Shown here piece after piece: positions 2,756-60,534 of a stretch of 61,626 nucleotides of DNA. A program made the translations under genes and the position numbers. The notes beneath the pieces are model-generated. The model ran no database searches. It was not told the DNA's origin and worked only from the letters and a program-made list of their open reading frames with translations. The stretch is from positions 1 through 61,626 of IMG/VR virus record IMGVR_UViG_3300046167_000317; one strand, written 5' to 3'. How positions within the stretch are numbered: the first letter of the stretch is position 1; each line of letters opens with the position of its first letter. This DNA comes from a virus (taxonomy: Duplodnaviria; Caudoviricetes).

Positions 2756-2911
2756 TTATATTATCGATTGATGTTCGTGTTTTGTTTGCAAATCGCGTTT
2801 CTTATTCTTGTACTGTCTATTCGCTTTACAATGAGGACAACTCCCGTTGTTTCTACAAGTTTTATCAAACCTTTTTGATCCGGTATAAGGCTTTTTTTTA
2901 GTCCTGCTCAT
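2756..2911 (-). CDS. Small basic Cys-containing protein (51 aa)
   Basis: Below the track cutoff: MSRTKKKPYTGSKRFDKTCRNNGSCPHCKANRQYKNKKRDLQTKHEHQSII. Start overlaps the upstream gene end. Confidence 0.65.
   Translation of the reverse strand: MSRTKKKPYTGSKRFDKTCRNNGSCPHCKANRQYKNKKRDLQTKHEHQSII
2757..2792 (-). promoter_or_regulatory. 36-bp early-region motif copy 3 (inside the 3' end of 2756..2911)
   Basis: tatattatcgattgatgttcgtgttttgtttgcaaa. Confidence 0.75.
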
Positions 2912-3152
2912 CTATTTCTTCATTTATACACCGCGCTATTTCGTAATAGTTTACGTCACTTAAAAACGATCGAGCGTAATTAGCTACTAGACTTCCTTTA
3001 CACCCGCAGTTATCAAATACTACGTTTTCTACTATTTCTTTTAGGTAATCTGCAGTAACTGTTTCATCACTAGCCCATTGAATGTCACCTAATATTTCTA
3101 AGTTTACTCGCCACGTAGCGTAGTTTGTCCATCCGTTGTATTCTTTATTCAT
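2898..3152 (-). CDS. Hypothetical phage protein (YNGWTNYATW family)
   Basis: YNGWTNYATWRVNL...VNYYEIA motif recurs in small phage proteins. Confidence 0.7.
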   Translation of the reverse strand: MNKEYNGWTNYATWRVNLEILGDIQWASDETVTADYLKEIVENVVFDNCGCKGSLVANYARSFLSDVNYYEIARCINEEIDEQD

Positions 3153-3168
3153 AATTTATTTGTTTTAG

Positions 3169-3278
3169 TGGACATGGCAGGAATCGAACCTGCGTTTGAA
3201 CCGAACCAGCCTCAGTAGTAACGCTTGCTGGAAGCATTAAGTTACCTTGAGTGTGGGTTCACTAACCATATCATGCCC
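3169..3278 (-). ncRNA. tmRNA-type tRNA-like domain only (mini-tmRNA, 110 nt, Ala identity)
   Basis: Acceptor GGGCAUG/CAUGUCC-A with G3:U70. Stemless D-loop AUAUGGUUAG. Helix UGAACC/GGUUCA capped by an irregular hairpin. AAC linker, then T arm GCAGG-UUCGAUU-CCUGC. Confidence 0.8.
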
Positions 3279-3280
3279 AA

Positions 3281-3505
3281 TTGAGAGGCGGATAGCACTG
3301 GAATGTTAGGGATGCACGCCATTTAATAGTATGCCCTGACTTATACCCTTTTCTCTGTTTATACTATCTTTCGCTGTCATCGTTCGCACAATTACAGGTG
3401 ATCAAACCTTAGTGCCGTCAATATCTTGGCTTCCAGACTTAAACCTCTCCGCTAGCAATTCACTTATGTGTTAAAGAGTTACGGGCTGTATACGGCCACC
3501 TTCAA
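3281..3505 (-). ncRNA. Candidate ~225-nt structured RNA
   Basis: No long ORF, GC-elevated. Ends pair (UUGAAGGUGG / CCGCCU-C-UCAA). Internal CUGGAA/UUCCAG pairing and a hairpin at 3305-3340. Confidence 0.45.
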
Positions 3506-3527
3506 CCTAATTAAGCTACTCGTCTAG

Positions 3528-3701
3528 CTATATTTCTTTTACCATTTCTGCGATCACACGGCGCATAAGTTCGCTGTGTATAGCATTGAAGTCATCATTG
3601 TTTACATCAAGATTGTTTAGTTGCCAGTCACAAGTTTTATATAGTGCTTGCATTGTTACTTCAGTTACTTGTGTTACGTGATCGTCTAAGTTCATATTCA
3701 T
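3528..3701 (-). CDS. Hypothetical protein (57 aa)
   Basis: Hand translation MNMNLDDHVTQVTEVTMQALYKTCDWQL...MVKEI. Confidence 0.55.
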   Translation of the reverse strand: MNMNLDDHVTQVTEVTMQALYKTCDWQLNNLDVNNDDFNAIHSELMRRVIAEMVKEI

Positions 3702-13418: not shown

Positions 13419-14972
13419 ATGGAATTTAATAATCCTAACGAAATCGTTAAAACCCTTACTTTTGGTAGTGAGGCAAATAGTCAAATTATATCAGGAGTAG
13501 AAAAATTAGCAAGCGCAGTAAAGAGCACTTTAGGTGCGTCTGGAAAATGCGTAATATACGAAGATGCTCTTGGAAGACCGGTAATAACAAAAGACGGTGT
13601 AACCGTTGCAGAAAGCGTAGTCTTATTACATCCGGTTGAAAACATAGGCGCTACCTTGATAAAAGAAGCGGCTAGAAATACAGTAAGAGAAGCAGGTGAC
13701 GGCACAACAACATCAACCGTGCTTGCTCATTCTCTATTAAAAATTGCAAACAAACATTTAGATGAAGAAAAAGTTAGAGAACTTAAAAGTGGCATTATTA
13801 GTGGTGCTGATAAAGTTAAGGTATATCTTGATAAAACCAGCACTGAAGTTAAAGGCGAAATGTTACGGAGCGTTGCTATCATTAGCTGCAATAACGATAT
13901 CGAGCTTGGAACCAAAATTGGCGAAGCTTACGAGCAAGTTGGAAAAAATGGAGTTGTACTAATGGAGGAGTCTGATACAAATGAAACTTATGTTGATTTT
14001 GTTGAAGGCGTCCAATTTGATAGTGGATTAAAATCCCCGCACTTAGTAACAGACAAAGACAAAGGTACGGCTGTTTTAGACGATCCTTATGTGCTTATTG
14101 TTTCTTCTCCTATTCCTAATATAAGAAAAATACAAAGTGTCTTAGAACACGTTATAAAAAGCAAAAGAAGTTTGCTTATAGTTGCAACTGTTGAGCAGCA
14201 GCCGTTCGCTACATTATTGTCAAATAAAGTTAAAGGTAATATAAAAGTAAATATAGTTGATGCCCCAGGCTTTGGGCCAACAAGGCAAGAAACTATAGAG
14301 GATCTGGCTTTACTTACAGGTGCTACAATTATAAACGAAGAGCTAGGGGATGATTTAGATTTAATTGATCCAAATGTATTAGGTTCTGCTATTAAATCTG
14401 TAACTGATGATAAATCAACTGTATTGCAAATATCTGATGAAATTGATATTACAGATCGAGTAGCTGATGTTAATAAGAAAATAGAAACAGAAACAAACCC
14501 GTTTTTTAGAAAGAAGTTAGAGCAGCGTTTGTCAATGCTAACAGGCAAAGTAGGTCTTGTTTATGTTGGAGCAGATTCAGCTGTAGAGTTAAAAGAAAAG
14601 AAAGATAGAGTTGAAGATGCGATCCATGCTACTAAAGCAGCTTATAAAGAAGGTATCGTAGCTGGAGGTGGAATTGCATTGCTTAATGCAGCAAATACTT
14701 TAAAGCCTAAGAATAAAGGAGAAGAGATATTATTTGAATCAATCAAAGCTCCTTATTACACAATACTAGACAACGCTGGGATTGTTGAAATCAAAAAGCC
14801 TTCGGTTAAAAACAGAGGTATTGACGTTAAAACCGGCAAAGAAGTTAATATGATTAAAGCAGGTATTATAGATCCTGTTTTAGTTACTAAGTCAGCTCTT
14901 AAAAACGCTGTAAGTGTAGTAACAACTATTATCTCTGCAGATTGTGTAATTAGTAATAAAAGATTAGCATAA
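13419..14972 (+). CDS. groEL: Phage chaperonin GroEL
   Basis: TKDGVTVA, AGDGTTT, EKKDRVEDA, GIVAGGG, GIIDP motifs; no GGM tail. Confidence 0.97.
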   Translation: MEFNNPNEIVKTLTFGSEANSQIISGVEKLASAVKSTLGASGKCVIYEDALGRPVITKDGVTVAESVVLLHPVENIGATLIKEAARNTVREAGDGTTTSTVLAHSLLKIANKHLDEEKVRELKSGIISGADKVKVYLDKTSTEVKGEMLRSVAIISCNNDIELGTKIGEAYEQVGKNGVVLMEESDTNETYVDFVEGVQFDSGLKSPHLVTDKDKGTAVLDDPYVLIVSSPIPNIRKIQSVLEHVIKSKRSLLIVATVEQQPFATLLSNKVKGNIKVNIVDAPGFGPTRQETIEDLALLTGATIINEELGDDLDLIDPNVLGSAIKSVTDDKSTVLQISDEIDITDRVADVNKKIETETNPFFRKKLEQRLSMLTGKVGLVYVGADSAVELKEKKDRVEDAIHATKAAYKEGIVAGGGIALLNAANTLKPKNKGEEILFESIKAPYYTILDNAGIVEIKKPSVKNRGIDVKTGKEVNMIKAGIIDPVLVTKSALKNAVSVVTTIISADCVISNKRLA

Positions 14973-58487: not shown

Positions 58488-59219
58488 TTACAAAGTCTGA
58501 TTAATAAAATAGTTTTCCGGTTTAAAGTCCGGGTTTTCGTAGAATAATTTATATGCTTCTACAGCTTTTTCAACTTTATCCTCTCCTTTAGAATAGAACT
58601 CAGGTGAACAGTCATATATACCTATCTGGTGTGTTGTTTTATCTATTACAATAAAAACCATTTCATAACCAAATAACTCTCTGTATATATAAGCTTGACT
58701 GTTATAATTGTACTTCTGAGCAGAGTATCTAAACTTAGAAATATCAGCCGTTGTTTTTAAATCAATAATTAACTTTTCGTCGTGATTAACAATATCGGCT
58801 TTGCCTTTCCATAGTTTACCTTTAATCTCTGCAATCCCAGGCACTTCGTATTCTACATTACCATCCCGTATTAAACCTCTACATACTTCGTTAGACATCA
58901 TAACATCTATAAGTACTTCGAGCTTATCTACTTCTGATTGTAGAAGACACATCTCACCTCCTGAGATCTCTTTGTAAGCTTTTGTATTTCTAGTAGAAGC
59001 TTCTATCACTTTGTATTTCTTAAGCTTATCTGGCTCAAGTATTGCAGTATGAAAGTAGCCTCCAACTAAAAATGCAGGGATTTGTTTTTGCTTTTCCCTA
59101 AGCGACAAAGGATTAGTTAATAGTTTTGAGATATCTGAATTACTTAGGAATTGTTTTCCAAACTTACCATAGTAATGTTCATCTTCTCTTAACTTCTTTA
59201 ACTCATCTTTTCTTGTCAT
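58488..59219 (-). CDS. RecE/exonuclease VIII-like PD-(D/E)XK nuclease
   Basis: LSNSDI, FHTAILEP, KGKADI, IIDLKTT, YNSQAYIY. Confidence 0.85.
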   Translation of the reverse strand: MTRKDELKKLREDEHYYGKFGKQFLSNSDISKLLTNPLSLREKQKQIPAFLVGGYFHTAILEPDKLKKYKVIEASTRNTKAYKEISGGEMCLLQSEVDKLEVLIDVMMSNEVCRGLIRDGNVEYEVPGIAEIKGKLWKGKADIVNHDEKLIIDLKTTADISKFRYSAQKYNYNSQAYIYRELFGYEMVFIVIDKTTHQIGIYDCSPEFYSKGEDKVEKAVEAYKLFYENPDFKPENYFINQTL

Positions 59220-59737
59220 TATAACGTTTTTAATGTTGCAGCAGGTATATCGTATTTACTTTTTATTGCTTCTAAGCTTCCCCCCGCTTTTAAGAAAGCC
59301 TTAGCTTTTGTTAACGCTGCTCCTTCTAATTTCGGCTTGGCAGTTTTACCGTGTCCATTCGTTGCATCACTGTCAGCTGTGTCATCAATTAAGAATAAAT
59401 TACCGAGTGAATACTTTTTACCGTAGCTTGATGCGCTACCAAACTTCTGGGGCATTTGCATACCTTTTTGATCTAAATCAACGCCAACTAAAGCTGTTGC
59501 GTGTATAGCACTTTTGCCGTCAGAAATAGTCGAAGTTGAACAAATAATAGGAAAGCCTTGGGCTTCAACCAATTGCTCGCTGATTGTTACTGTAACTCCT
59601 AACTCTAATAGAAAGGGCTTTGTTGCTTCTAGGATATCTTCGGCTGATCTGAAGTTATATTTGCCGAATGAATTAAATCTACTTTTCTTCGATTTAAACT
59701 TTGTCTGGATCGTTGCCAGTTTCTCATTTAAGGTCAT
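59219..59737 (-). CDS. erf: ERF-family single-strand annealing protein
   Basis: NSFGKYNFRSAEDIL, GSASSYGKKYSLGNLFLIDD. Confidence 0.9.
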   Translation of the reverse strand: MTLNEKLATIQTKFKSKKSRFNSFGKYNFRSAEDILEATKPFLLELGVTVTISEQLVEAQGFPIICSTSTISDGKSAIHATALVGVDLDQKGMQMPQKFGSASSYGKKYSLGNLFLIDDTADSDATNGHGKTAKPKLEGAALTKAKAFLKAGGSLEAIKSKYDIPAATLKTL

Positions 59738-59784: not shown

Positions 59785-60534
59785 TTAAAGATAATCAATT
59801 ACTTGGGTGGGATCGGTGTTAGCTATCAACTTGTCAATTGCCTCTCTTTTGATCTGCGAAACACGTACATTTGCAGTGTTTACGTTTATTTTTAGCTTGT
59901 TTGCTATATAGTTAGCAGAATGCTTATCACAATCTAAACCAAAAGATAATCTTAATACTTCGTATTCAATAGGCGTTAAATGCTCTTTCATTAATCCTAA
60001 CAAATAAATATTTAATAAATCTATATTATAAGGTGTTGACTTATCTTCTATTTGATATATAGGATTTTCTTCGTCATTATAATTTTCATCATAGCTTGAA
60101 AATACTGAATTAAAAAATAGTGATACCATTTTATCATCATCAGGGTTTTTACGTATTTGATTTAGCTTATGCTCAGGTATTTTAACATCACCCCGGTTAA
60201 TATCTATTGCGCGTCTTATAGCTCCTTTAATTCTTTTGCTTAAAAAAGATTTTAAAGTTTTTTCAACATCAGACGATTCGTCTATCATTAGCCAATCTAT
60301 TTTATCTACAGCTTTAACTAAGCCTGAGTTACCTTCTTGTATTAAATCGTTAATACTTAATACGCCTGAGGCTTGCTGGGTTGTTGAAAATTTTCTAGCT
60401 AGATTTTCTACCAGTGGCATAAACTTTATTATTAGCTCATCTCTGGTATATTCATCGTAGAACTTTTCAGAAGGTATAGATTTTTTAAGATCCTCTTTGT
60501 ATCTTATGTAATTCTGTACATTATATTTCTTCAT
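59785..60534 (-). CDS. Phage-encoded sigma-70-family factor
   Basis: Region 2 PLVENLARKF...DLIQEGNSGLVKAVDK; region 4 LTPIEYEVLRLSFGL...RVSQIKREAIDKL. Confidence 0.9.
   Translation of the reverse strand: MKKYNVQNYIRYKEDLKKSIPSEKFYDEYTRDELIIKFMPLVENLARKFSTTQQASGVLSINDLIQEGNSGLVKAVDKIDWLMIDESSDVEKTLKSFLSKRIKGAIRRAIDINRGDVKIPEHKLNQIRKNPDDDKMVSLFFNSVFSSYDENYNDEENPIYQIEDKSTPYNIDLLNIYLLGLMKEHLTPIEYEVLRLSFGLDCDKHSANYIANKLKINVNTANVRVSQIKREAIDKLIANTDPTQVIDYL

What the first reader, a model, noticed from the sequence alone, without database searches (positions are those of the whole stretch)
3281..3505. Second structured RNA candidate (~225 nt) abutting the mini-tmRNA
Seen: a GC-elevated gap without a long ORF in an otherwise densely coded region. 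On the - strand the 5' end UUGAAGGUGG pairs with the 3' end CCGCCU(C)UCAA, which ends 2 nt before the tRNA-like domain's G1. Nested pairings include CUGGAA/UUCCAG (3431-3436 with 3298-3303) and a hairpin at 3305-3340. GCGGA and GAGAGG offer alternative pairing with the 3' end. A 24-codon ORF (3380-3306, MTAKDSINREKGISQGILLNGVHP) stops inside the hairpin. Inference: a co-transcribed ncRNA released by RNase P cleavage at the tRNA-like domain. It could be 6S-like, or more speculatively a detached mRNA-like module acting with the mini-tmRNA.
Basis: partly seen in the sequence, partly recalled or inferred. Interest (0 to 1): 0.72.

Follow-up and report, generated by a model that had tools for sequence, protein, structure and literature searches.

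The report
Pseudoknotted phage RNA beside mini-tmRNA
The gap holds a real, conserved, pseudoknotted non-coding RNA of a marine phage that always sits just upstream of a tRNA-shaped gene; it belongs to no described RNA family and its job is still unknown.

Summary
The ORF-free, GC-elevated gap is real, and it encodes structured RNA on the minus strand. It is not one 225-nt unit closed by its own ends. It holds two modules of a longer non-coding island (3166-3530). The first (3451-3530) is a hairpin with two invariant motifs, M1 and M2, around a variable apex. The second (3283-3449) is a 167-nt core with helices P1-P5, in which P2 and P4 cross as a pseudoknot. Across 28 distinct homologues, 97.4% of pair cells are paired and 9 pairs show compensatory changes; no shuffle reached the score. 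The single-sequence folding energy is no better than shuffles (z +0.72), because the fold is pseudoknotted. The core ends 4 nt before G1 of the tRNA-like-domain-only mini-tmRNA. In relatives it always precedes such a domain or a true tRNA-Met. The end-to-end pairing, the 6S idea and the small ORF (kept in 12 of 28) do not. No Rfam family matches. Release by RNase P is plausible but untested. The function is unknown. The nearest analogues are phage RNAs found near tRNA genes (GOLLD, ROOL, T4 RNAC/RNAD).

The parts
3506..3530 (-). Motif M1 (TAGCTAGACGAGTAGCTTAATTAGG), the 5' half of a hairpin module. It overlaps the stop codon of the upstream 57-aa ORF.
Evidence: It occurs once in the window, with 0 expected by chance. 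The 23-nt version is exact in 31 viral-contig stretches.
3471..3505 (-). Variable apical hairpin between M1 and M2 (closing stem UUGAAG / CUCUUUAA).
   Evidence: 28 of 32 distinct variable segments between M1 and M2 fold with their ends paired, against 182 of 1600 shuffles. The closing stems differ in sequence between loci.
3451..3470 (-). Motif M2 (CACATAAGTGAATTGCTAGC), the 3' half of the hairpin module. I propose AGUA/GAA (loop-E-like), GCUUA/UAAGU and GCUAG/CUAGC pairings with M1.
   Evidence: M2 follows M1 in the loci listed. When the module is inserted inside the core (L054, L055, L056), the closing GCUAG/CUAGC is replaced by GG/CC. The loop-E assignment is my reading of the sequence and is not tested.
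3283..3449 (-). 167-nt pseudoknotted core. P1 is 3444-3449 with 3283-3288. P2 is 3431-3436 with 3298-3303. P3 (3373-3430) is a variable insert site. P4 is 3362-3368 with 3291-3297 and crosses P2. P5 is 3346-3348 with 3309-3311. An inner sub-module lies at 3314-3340.
   Evidence: Alignment A1 holds 28 distinct homologues. 97.4% of cells are paired, 9 pairs change on both sides, and the covariation score is 0.227 against 0.119 for shuffles (0 of 500 reach it). Slid controls pair 34-45% of cells. RNAalifold independently finds P1, P2, P5 and the inner stem.
3373..3430 (-). P3 domain, an optional nested module.
   Evidence: It is replaced by a short hairpin in L052 and L075, and by other modules, including M1-M2 itself, in L054-L056. 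Its GCAC/GUGC stem changes to ACAC/GUGU in L053, L064, L071 and L073 (read by eye).
3306..3380 (-).
   Evidence: An ATG-started ORF of 20 aa or more ending at the same TAA is present in 12 of 28 homologues. 8 of 28 have length differences that are not multiples of three. Its start lies in the optional P3 domain.
3279..3282 (-). AAUU linker between P1 and G1 of the tRNA-like domain.
   Evidence: The tRNA-like domain starts 4-5 nt after the core in 14 of 32 instances. The 4-nt leaders are A/U-rich, and N(-1) is U in 28, C in 4 and A in 3 of 35.
3166..3278 (-). tRNA-like-domain-only 'mini-tmRNA' (context, a separate finding). It has a G3:U70 acceptor stem, a T arm and a 66-nt inner insert.
   Evidence: Rfam tmRNA scores 33.6 bits (gathering score 47), E 8.9e-12. 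ARAGORN finds nothing.

Best explanation
The interval is part of a non-coding RNA island (3166-3530, minus strand) of an uncultured marine phage related to phages of Flavobacteriia. It is built from self-closed RNA modules. Here these are a hairpin with motifs M1 and M2 and a variable apex (3451-3530), then a 167-nt core (3283-3449), then a tRNA-like domain.

In the core, helix P1 closes an H-type pseudoknot. The continuous 3' strand UUCCAG-UGCUAUC pairs with two separate 5' strands (P2 and P4). An optional domain sits in one loop (P3) and a small invariant sub-module in the other (P5). This much is shown.

Inferred: the island is transcribed together with the surrounding early genes, and host RNase P cuts at G1 of the tRNA-like domain. 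In some relatives the cut would be at a true tRNA-Met. The cut would free the upstream modules as a stable RNA whose 3' end is protected by P1, much as tRNAs punctuate phage T4's tRNA-region transcripts. The invariant junction nucleotides suggest a specific tertiary fold that binds a partner, either protein or RNA. That partner, and therefore the biological role, is unknown.
For: Structure. 28 distinct homologues were aligned. 97.4% of 896 pair cells are paired, and 9 of 32 pairs have changes on both sides (76 cells). No shuffle of 500 reached the covariation score, and slid controls gave at most 45% paired. P4 occurs as GAUAGUA/UGCUAUC, GACAGGA/UCCUGUC, GACGGGA/UCCCGUC and GGCAGUA/UGCUGCC. 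P5 occurs as GGG/CCC, GAG/CUC and GGA/UCC. P1 occurs as GAGAGG/CCUCUC or GAGAAG/CUUCUC. RNAalifold finds P1, P2, P5 and the inner stem on its own.

Strand. The G-U pairs (for example UG in 14 of 28 at P2 and in 8 of 28 at P4) would be mismatches on the other strand.

Conservation. By my count on the alignment, the core differs at 6 of 167 positions from L006. The neighbouring 84-aa protein is only 59% identical in that locus.

Linkage. There are 32 distinct core instances. A tRNA-like-domain start lies within 330 nt in 28 of them, and at 4-5 nt in 14. A true tRNA-Met lies at 8 nt in 1 (L054). L040 has its tmRNA-type hit 186 nt downstream. The other two contigs end too early to tell.

RNase P context. 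N(-1) is U in 28 of 35 distinct tRNA-like domains.

Expression. Contigs from four RNA libraries cover 3316-3527 (X16-X18) and 3230-3451 (X15). The X15 contig bridges the junction between core and tRNA-like domain. These are contigs, and DNA carry-over cannot be excluded.

Not coding. Not a known family.
Against: The single-sequence folding energy is no better than shuffles (z +0.72).

The homologues were fished with a pattern that fixes the inner sub-module and part of the P2 3' strand. The invariance of those helices is therefore by construction, and P2 rests on conservation plus one one-sided change.

The sequences are related, so cell counts overstate the number of independent events. By my count there are about 7 independent compensatory changes.

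No RNA 5' or 3' ends were observed, and contigs cannot show them. RNase P cleavage and release are inference only.

Other modules of the same islands also occur inside the tRNA-like domain, where they cannot be released. This fits a model in which the modules work while attached.

No promoter or terminator was found. The scan does not cover Bacteroidota promoters.
Confidence: 0.55

Rival explanations
1. The upstream modules are not cut off. They stay joined to the alanine-type tRNA-like domain and serve as its 'body', a reverse-order analogue of the pseudoknot-rich part of tmRNA. The whole RNA of about 365 nt would then act on stalled ribosomes or on SmpB, EF-Tu or AlaRS.
For: Modules C, D, E and F of these islands occur both upstream of and inside the tRNA-like domain in different loci. 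This suggests position-independent function on one molecule. An RNA-library contig bridges the core and the tRNA-like domain (X15, 3230-3451). In canonical tmRNA the tRNA-like domain is joined to several pseudoknots (established knowledge).
Against: The core itself was never seen inside a tRNA-like domain (0 of 32). In L054 the same core precedes a true tRNA-Met, which must be 5'-processed to work. The tRNA-like domain has an ordinary RNase P substrate shape with U at -1. A bridging contig is also expected from a precursor.
Confidence: 0.2
2. It is a cis-regulatory sensor, riboswitch-like, that controls maturation of the tRNA-like domain or expression of the downstream 84-aa gene.
For: The junctions are invariant and the helices covary, as in ligand-binding RNAs. 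A phage tmRNA gene with a glutamine riboswitch has been reported (PMC9004378; abstract and passages read).
Against: No riboswitch family matched at E up to 10. No expression platform is evident: there is no terminator, and I saw no alternative pairing with the acceptor stem. The distance to the tRNA-like domain varies from 4 to about 165 nt, with unrelated modules in between.
Confidence: 0.08
3. It is a detached mRNA-like (tag-template) module that works with the mini-tmRNA.
For: In relatives, a different module with the string GCG AAU AAA UAA lies inside the tRNA-like domain in L081, and beside the second tRNA-like-domain 3' end of L048/L075. It lies upstream of the domain in L007, L013, L025, L029, L034, L039 and L076. 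M1 can be read as GCU AGA CGA GUA GCU UAA (my reading).
Against: That module is absent from the window. The substitutions follow base-pairing, not codons. M1 is part of a hairpin module that also sits inside the core in L054-L056.
Confidence: 0.04
4. It is a 6S-like RNA that mimics open promoter DNA and binds RNA polymerase.
For: Its size of about 170-225 nt is similar. The phage encodes its own sigma factor (59785-60534).
Against: No Rfam 6S hit appeared at E up to 10. The covariation-supported fold is a branched pseudoknot, not a long rod with a central bubble.
Confidence: 0.02
5. It is a cis-acting catalytic RNA. One version is a minimal RNase-P-like core, because the strand order P1-P2-P3-P4...P2'-P4'-P1' matches the catalytic domain of RNase P RNA. 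Another is a self-cleaving ribozyme that trims the tRNA-like domain.
For: The helix order and the GAAAG that leads into P4 resemble RNase P RNA as I recall it. The element sits directly 5' of a tRNA-shaped substrate.
Against: No RNase P or ribozyme family matched at E up to 10. P2' and P4' abut with no J2/4 junction, and I did not see the conserved CR-I and CR-V strings. The spacing to the substrate varies from 4 to about 165 nt. The resemblance rests on recall and is only topological.
Confidence: 0.03

Closest known systems
GOLLD and ROOL RNAs (large ornate RNAs of phages and prophages)
   Same: They are phage-borne and rich in pseudoknots, have a conserved part plus variable parts, and have no known function. 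They are 'often near tRNA islands', and tRNAs are sometimes present within GOLLD (bioRxiv 10.1101/2024.12.08.627333; passages read). One GOLLD studied came from a marine sample, downstream of a Met-tRNA.
   Different: Neither Rfam family matched, at the gathering score across the whole window or at E up to 10 or 1 locally. This RNA is much smaller (core 116-231 nt, island about 365 nt here). It lies upstream of, not downstream of, the tRNA-shaped gene. Oligomerisation was not tested.
Phage T4 RNAC and RNAD (small stable RNAs of the tRNA region)
   Same: They are small RNAs transcribed from a phage tRNA region, with unknown roles (PMC3014915; passage read). That they are processed along with the tRNAs is my recollection.
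   Different: No sequence comparison was made. The host clade differs. Here the partner is mostly a tRNA-like domain of tmRNA type rather than tRNAs.
tmRNA (one-piece, two-piece, and forms reduced to the tRNA-like domain)
   Same: The adjacent gene matches the two ends of the Rfam tmRNA model and has G3:U70. tmRNA bodies are chains of pseudoknots. Phage tmRNAs, including two-piece ones, are known (PMC9004378).
   Different: The structured RNA lies 5' of the acceptor stem, not between the two halves of the tRNA-like domain. It has no conserved tag frame. It did not align to the tmRNA model.
6S RNA
   Same: Similar length.
   Different: The fold differs and there is no family match.
tRNA-punctuated processing (MALAT1-mascRNA; tRNA-linked transcripts)
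   Same: A tRNA-shaped element directly 3' of a structured RNA could define that RNA's 3' end through RNase P. This is a recalled analogy.
   Different: The known example is eukaryotic. Cleavage was not shown here.

Membership tests
6S RNA | Match to an Rfam 6S covariance model | tested here: not met
   No 6S hit at the gathering score or at E up to 10 in 3000-3700.
6S RNA | Long irregular hairpin with a large central bubble | tested here: not met
   Covariation supports a branched fold with crossing helices P2 and P4.
tmRNA mRNA-like domain | A conserved short reading frame ending in a stop codon | tested here: not met
   The ORF is kept in 12 of 28 homologues, and 8 of 28 have frame-breaking length changes.
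tmRNA mRNA-like domain | Lies between the 5' and 3' halves of the tRNA-like domain | tested here: not met
   The RNA lies wholly 5' of G1 (3278). The core is never inside a tRNA-like domain in the 32 instances.
GOLLD / ROOL | Match to the Rfam covariance model | tested here: not met
   No hit.
GOLLD / ROOL | Self-assembly into RNA-only multimers | not testable with these tools
   Needs size-exclusion chromatography or cryo-EM.
RNase P RNA | Match to an Rfam RNase P model, or presence of the conserved CR-I and CR-V sequences | tested here: not met
   No RNase P hit at E up to 10 or E up to 1 in 12 relatives. The conserved strings were not seen by eye, and my knowledge of them is recalled.
Known self-cleaving ribozymes and riboswitches (all Rfam families) | Covariance-model match | tested here: not met
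   Searches returned only partial tmRNA hits; one search returned partial tmRNA hits and one tRNA.
RNase P-punctuated leader RNA (functional class) | A tRNA-shaped RNase P substrate directly downstream | tested here: met
   A tRNA-like domain or tRNA lies downstream in 30 of 32 instances, and the other 2 contigs are truncated. N(-1) is U in 28 of 35.
RNase P-punctuated leader RNA (functional class) | An RNA 3' end at the cleavage site | not testable with these tools
   Only contigs could be laid, and these show no ends.

The most novel reading that the evidence does not exclude
The interval is one cassette of an undescribed, recombining 'construction kit' of self-closed RNA modules. The kit includes the M1-M2 hairpin, the pseudoknot core and at least six further cassettes. 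Marine phages of Flavobacteriia plug these into several kinds of slot: between modules, at the hairpin apex, in P3 of the core, and inside the tRNA-like domain. All of them surround a tmRNA reduced to its tRNA-like domain. In this reading the pseudoknot core is a new class of ornate phage RNA. It would work either as an RNA-only assembly, like GOLLD and ROOL, or as the attached body of a reverse-order tmRNA that engages stalled ribosomes without tagging.
Probability: 0.15. Interest if true: 0.85.

Novelty: new variant of a known kind. Interest (0 to 1): 0.66.

Why it matters
This adds a covariation-supported RNA fold that matches no Rfam family, and it is abundant enough to appear in contigs from marine RNA libraries. 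It ties that fold to an unusual set of tmRNA genes reduced to the tRNA-like domain (47 to about 180 nt) in phages of a major group of marine heterotrophs.

It gives a compact system of 120-170 nt for asking why phages keep ornate RNAs next to tRNA genes. That question is still open for GOLLD, ROOL and T4 RNAC/RNAD.

The way modules move between slots, including inside the tRNA-like domain, is a rare natural example of modular RNA architecture.

It also shows that a folding-energy z-score can miss a real pseudoknotted RNA.

Tried and rejected
**Folding energy against shuffles.** z was +0.72 on the minus strand and 0.04 on the plus strand, so there was no signal. I do not take this as evidence against structure, because the fold is pseudoknotted.

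**Family and gene finders.** Rfam at the gathering score on the whole window, and at permissive thresholds on the window and on 24 related loci, gave only partial tmRNA hits and one tRNA. ARAGORN found no tRNA or tmRNA in the window, and only one tRNA-Met in L002-L013.

**Searches in sequence collections.**
- BLASTN against 50,697 phage records gave no match with 3100-3600 or with 3440-3535 at E up to 10.
- Two exact-pattern scans of 185,579 prokaryote genomes found nothing. Because the patterns are exact, diverged copies would be missed.
- One viral scan returned 0 although L006 holds the pattern. The pattern straddles a stored-chunk boundary (L041/L051).

**Context checks.**
- The promoter and terminator scan found nothing above chance and does not cover Bacteroidota promoters.
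- Pfam and PHROGs on neighbouring small ORFs gave only DUF7249, just below its cut-off, for the 84-aa ORF. No RNA-processing enzyme was found among the 20 larger ORFs tested.

**RNA-library contigs.** They left the flanking ORFs (above 3541 and below 3163) uncovered. This is not evidence of anything. Relatives' flanks are too diverged to be laid, and contigs give neither levels nor ends. Contig ends at 3316 and 3327 coincide with strain differences at 3319 and 3326, so they are probably assembly breaks.

**Ideas considered and dropped.**
- A group I intron: the P/Q/R/S-like strings are in the wrong order, and there is no Rfam hit.
- A DNA-level element such as an origin or iterons: the covariation includes strand-specific G-U pairs.
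- An attP fragment of host ssrA: both halves of the tRNA-like domain are present, and no integrase was seen among the ORFs tested.

**Not achieved.** I could not fetch a Flavobacteriia tmRNA to compare its pseudoknots with these modules.

Full report
**What is at the coordinates.** The window is an IMG/VR virus record of 61,626 bases, estimated 97% complete. Its terminase is 46% identical to those of Flavobacterium phages, and related terminases occur in Cellulophaga, Tenacibaculum and Maribacter phages. It also encodes GroEL, a sigma factor, Erf with an exonuclease, ribonucleotide reductase, ThyA and MazG. Between the 57-aa ORF (3528-3701, minus strand) and the 84-aa ORF (2898-3152, minus strand) there is no ORF of 30 aa or more, apart from one that overlaps the tRNA-like domain. 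GC rises to 0.43-0.45 here, against about 0.28-0.37 nearby. Rfam gives no hit at the gathering score anywhere in the window. With a permissive threshold, 3166-3278 (minus strand) matches only the two ends of the tmRNA model, with a 66-nt insert in place of 326 positions (33.6 bits against a gathering score of 47; E 8.9e-12). ARAGORN finds nothing. Nothing in Rfam touches 3281-3505 at E up to 10.

The 225-nt stretch folds to -49.0 kcal/mol, against -52.2 +/- 4.4 for shuffles (z +0.72). The plus strand gives z 0.04.

**Relatives.**
- Loci found through the neighbouring 84-aa protein and through a pattern from the tRNA-like domain showed that relatives carry similar mini-tmRNAs. Two of about 80 nt score above the Rfam gathering score.
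- L006 carries a close copy of the candidate. By my count on the alignment, its 167-nt core differs at 6 positions from the window. The 5' hairpin and the interior of the tRNA-like domain are diverged, and the neighbouring protein is only 59% identical.
- A 25-nt motif (M1, 3506-3530) occurs once in the window, with 0 expected. Its 23-nt form is exact in 31 viral-contig stretches.
- Pattern scans for the core gave 8 and 3 viral stretches and 30 metagenome stretches.
- Neither element was found in 185,579 prokaryote genomes with exact patterns, nor in 50,697 deposited phage genomes by BLASTN.

**Anatomy.** The interval is two modules, not one.

*Module 1 (3451-3530).* It consists of M1, a variable segment, and M2 (CACATAAGTGAATTGCTAGC).
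- Of 32 distinct variable segments, 28 fold with their two ends paired, against 182 of 1600 shuffles.
- The segments belong to several unrelated sequence types.
- I read M1 and M2 as pairing through GCUAG/CUAGC and GCUUA/UAAGU around an AGUA/GAA internal loop that resembles loop E. This is inference.
- One supporting fact: when the whole module sits inside the core (L054-L056), the outer GCUAG/CUAGC is replaced by GG/CC.

*Module 2, the core (3283-3449).* In 28 distinct homologues (alignment A1) it has the following helices.

| Helix | Window coordinates | Sequence or variants |
|---|---|---|
| P1 | 3444-3449 with 3283-3288 | GAGAGG/CCUCUC; GAGAAG/CUUCUC in 8; one G-U intermediate |
| P2 | 3431-3436 with 3298-3303 | CUGGAA/UUCCAG; C or U opposite G, 14 each |
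| P3 | 3373-3430 | insertion site, from a short hairpin (L052, L075) to about 120 nt |
| P4 | 3362-3368 with 3291-3297 | four fully compensated variants, plus one form with a U-U mismatch |
| P5 | 3346-3348 with 3309-3311 | three variants |
| Inner sub-module | 3314-3340 | invariant |

P2 and P4 cross, and their 3' strands are contiguous. The core is therefore an H-type pseudoknot closed by P1.

*Covariation counts.*
- 97.4% of 896 cells are paired.
- 9 of 32 pairs change on both sides (76 cells).
- The covariation score is 0.227, against 0.119 +/- 0.008 for shuffles; 0 of 500 shuffles reach it.
- Sliding the partners by 1-3 columns drops pairing to 34-45%, with at most 1 compensated pair.
- RNAalifold, which cannot draw pseudoknots, recovers P1, P2, P5 and the inner stem.

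*Caveats.*
- The search pattern fixed the inner sub-module and part of the P2 3' strand, so their invariance is by construction.
- The sequences are related. By my count there are about seven independent compensatory events.
- The G-U pairs only work on the minus strand, which is also the strand of the tRNA-like domain.

- CUGGAA/UUCCAG is P2.
- The 'hairpin at 3305-3340' is roughly the P5 sub-domain.
- GAGAGG, not UUGAAGGUGG, is the conserved partner of the 3' strand CCUCUC. The proposed end-to-end helix uses a segment that is variable or absent in homologues.
- The 24-codon ORF is kept in 12 of 28 homologues. 8 of 28 have length differences that break the frame. Its ATG lies in the optional P3 domain. 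The substitutions follow pairing, not codons.

**Context and linkage.** Regex mapping of modules over all loci shows islands built from recurring, self-closed modules. I labelled them C, D, E, F, G, A66 and B, plus a second tRNA-like type, T1. They occupy different slots in different phages: between modules, at the apex of the M1-M2 hairpin, in P3 of the core, and inside the tRNA-like domain. Nearly every island in that map with enough downstream sequence ends in a tRNA-like domain or a tRNA-Met.

For the core there are 32 distinct instances (some are the same contig fetched from two collections).
- A tRNA-like-domain start lies within 330 nt in 28, and at 4-5 nt in 14.
- L054 has a true tRNA-Met 8 nt downstream.
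- L040 has its tmRNA-type hit 186 nt downstream.
- L066 and L079 end after 109 and 57 nt, so they cannot be scored. By eye, L079 ends inside a tRNA.

Across 35 distinct tRNA-like domains, the base before G1 is U in 28, C in 4 and A in 3. The acceptor stem covaries (GGGCGUG/CACGUCC or GGGCAUG/CAUGUCC, always with G3:U70). CCA is encoded in only one.

**Expression.** Six RNA runs hold 20-27% of the sampled words of 3100-3700. I laid four of them. Contigs from X16-X18 cover 3316-3527, and one from X15 covers 3230-3451, bridging the core and the tRNA-like domain. The tool warns that contigs in RNA libraries do not prove transcription and show no ends. I treat this as consistent with an expressed RNA and nothing more. 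Among the DNA runs not flagged as a possible source, ten (X5-X14, seven studies) hold 78% or more of the words.

**How it most likely works.**

*Shown.* This is a conserved, pseudoknotted RNA domain on the minus strand. It is non-coding, and it is linked to a downstream tRNA-shaped gene.

*Inferred.* It is co-transcribed with the early-gene cluster. It starts at the stop codon of the upstream ORF, and no promoter or terminator was detected, although the scan does not cover Bacteroidota promoters. RNase P cutting at G1 then separates it from the tRNA-like domain. The strongest argument is that the same core sits directly before a real tRNA-Met in L054, and before an apparent tRNA at the truncated end of L079. 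A tRNA must be 5'-matured to work. The U at -1 fits the preference of bacterial RNase P, as I recall it. P1 would then guard the new 3' end.

*Unknown.* What the freed RNA does is not known. The invariant A-rich junctions (GAAAG, UAAACAGAGAAAAG, UAACA) suggest a specific tertiary fold or binding pocket.

*Main rival.* The leader stays attached as a tmRNA-like body. This is favoured by the fact that other modules also live inside tRNA-like domains.

**Comparison with known systems.**
- It works most like the phage ornate RNAs GOLLD and ROOL, which are 'often near tRNA islands' and of unknown function (bioRxiv 10.1101/2024.12.08.627333; passages read).
- It is a member of neither by any test I could run.
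- Phage tmRNAs, including two-piece forms with a glutamine riboswitch, are on record (PMC9004378; abstract and passages read). A Cellulophaga phage with one tmRNA is listed in PMC8776804 (passages read).
- I found no description of this RNA in full-text searches for tmRNA, phage and domain terms, for Cellulophaga phage with tmRNA, for GOLLD and ROOL, and for 'tmRNA-like'. These searches cover open-access text only. Supplements were not consulted.

**Verdict.** Its boundaries and its closing helix were wrong, and the 6S and mRNA-like readings fail. RNase P release is the best current mechanism, but it is untested.

Noticed in passing
window 3166-3278 (-); L052 2956-3002; L081 228-408: The 'mini-tmRNA' belongs to a family of tRNA-like-domain-only genes that range from 47 nt (no inner module at all) to about 180 nt. 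All have G3:U70, and CCA is encoded in only 1 of 35.
   Followed up: partly
L013 2174-2260; L015, L018, L021, L022, L033, L036 and others: A second tRNA-like element, T1, has an acceptor stem AACUAG/CUAGUU, a T arm GAGGUUCGAAUCCUC and no G3:U70. It sits directly after M2 in many islands, sometimes in tandem with the alanine-type domain and a tRNA-Met.
   Followed up: partly
L081 about 302; L007 2660; L013 2045; L076 192; L025, L029, L034, L039: A module contains AGCGAAUAAAUAAC, which can be read as GCG AAU AAA UAA (Ala-Asn-Lys-stop). It lies inside the tRNA-like domain in L081 and upstream of it in the other loci listed. It may be a minimal tag template. It is absent from the window.
   Followed up: no
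window 3185-3262 (-): The interior of the window's tRNA-like domain holds a frame GCU UCC AGC AAG CGU UAC UAC UGA. The one difference in L064 (UAC to UAU) is matched by a compensating change in a stem, so it looks structural rather than coding.
   Followed up: no
L003, L007, L048, L056, L060-L062, L071, L075, L077, L078 (upstream of the islands): A cysteine-rich ORF of about 62 aa ending ...HRAWRRK often ends 1-3 nt before the first RNA module. It has no Pfam match. I did not search the window for a homologue.
   Followed up: partly
window 13419-14972 (+), 59785-60534 (-), 58488-59737 (-): The phage encodes a GroEL-type chaperonin, its own sigma factor, and an Erf plus exonuclease recombination pair. 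The recombination pair could drive the module shuffling.
   Followed up: no
L066 3' end: The metagenome contig ends in what looks to me like a sequencing-adapter string, directly after an RNA module. This is probably an assembly artefact.
   Followed up: no
L041/L051 (same viral contig as L006): A collection scan missed a pattern that straddles a stored-chunk boundary. Zero hits from such scans can therefore be false negatives.
   Followed up: yes
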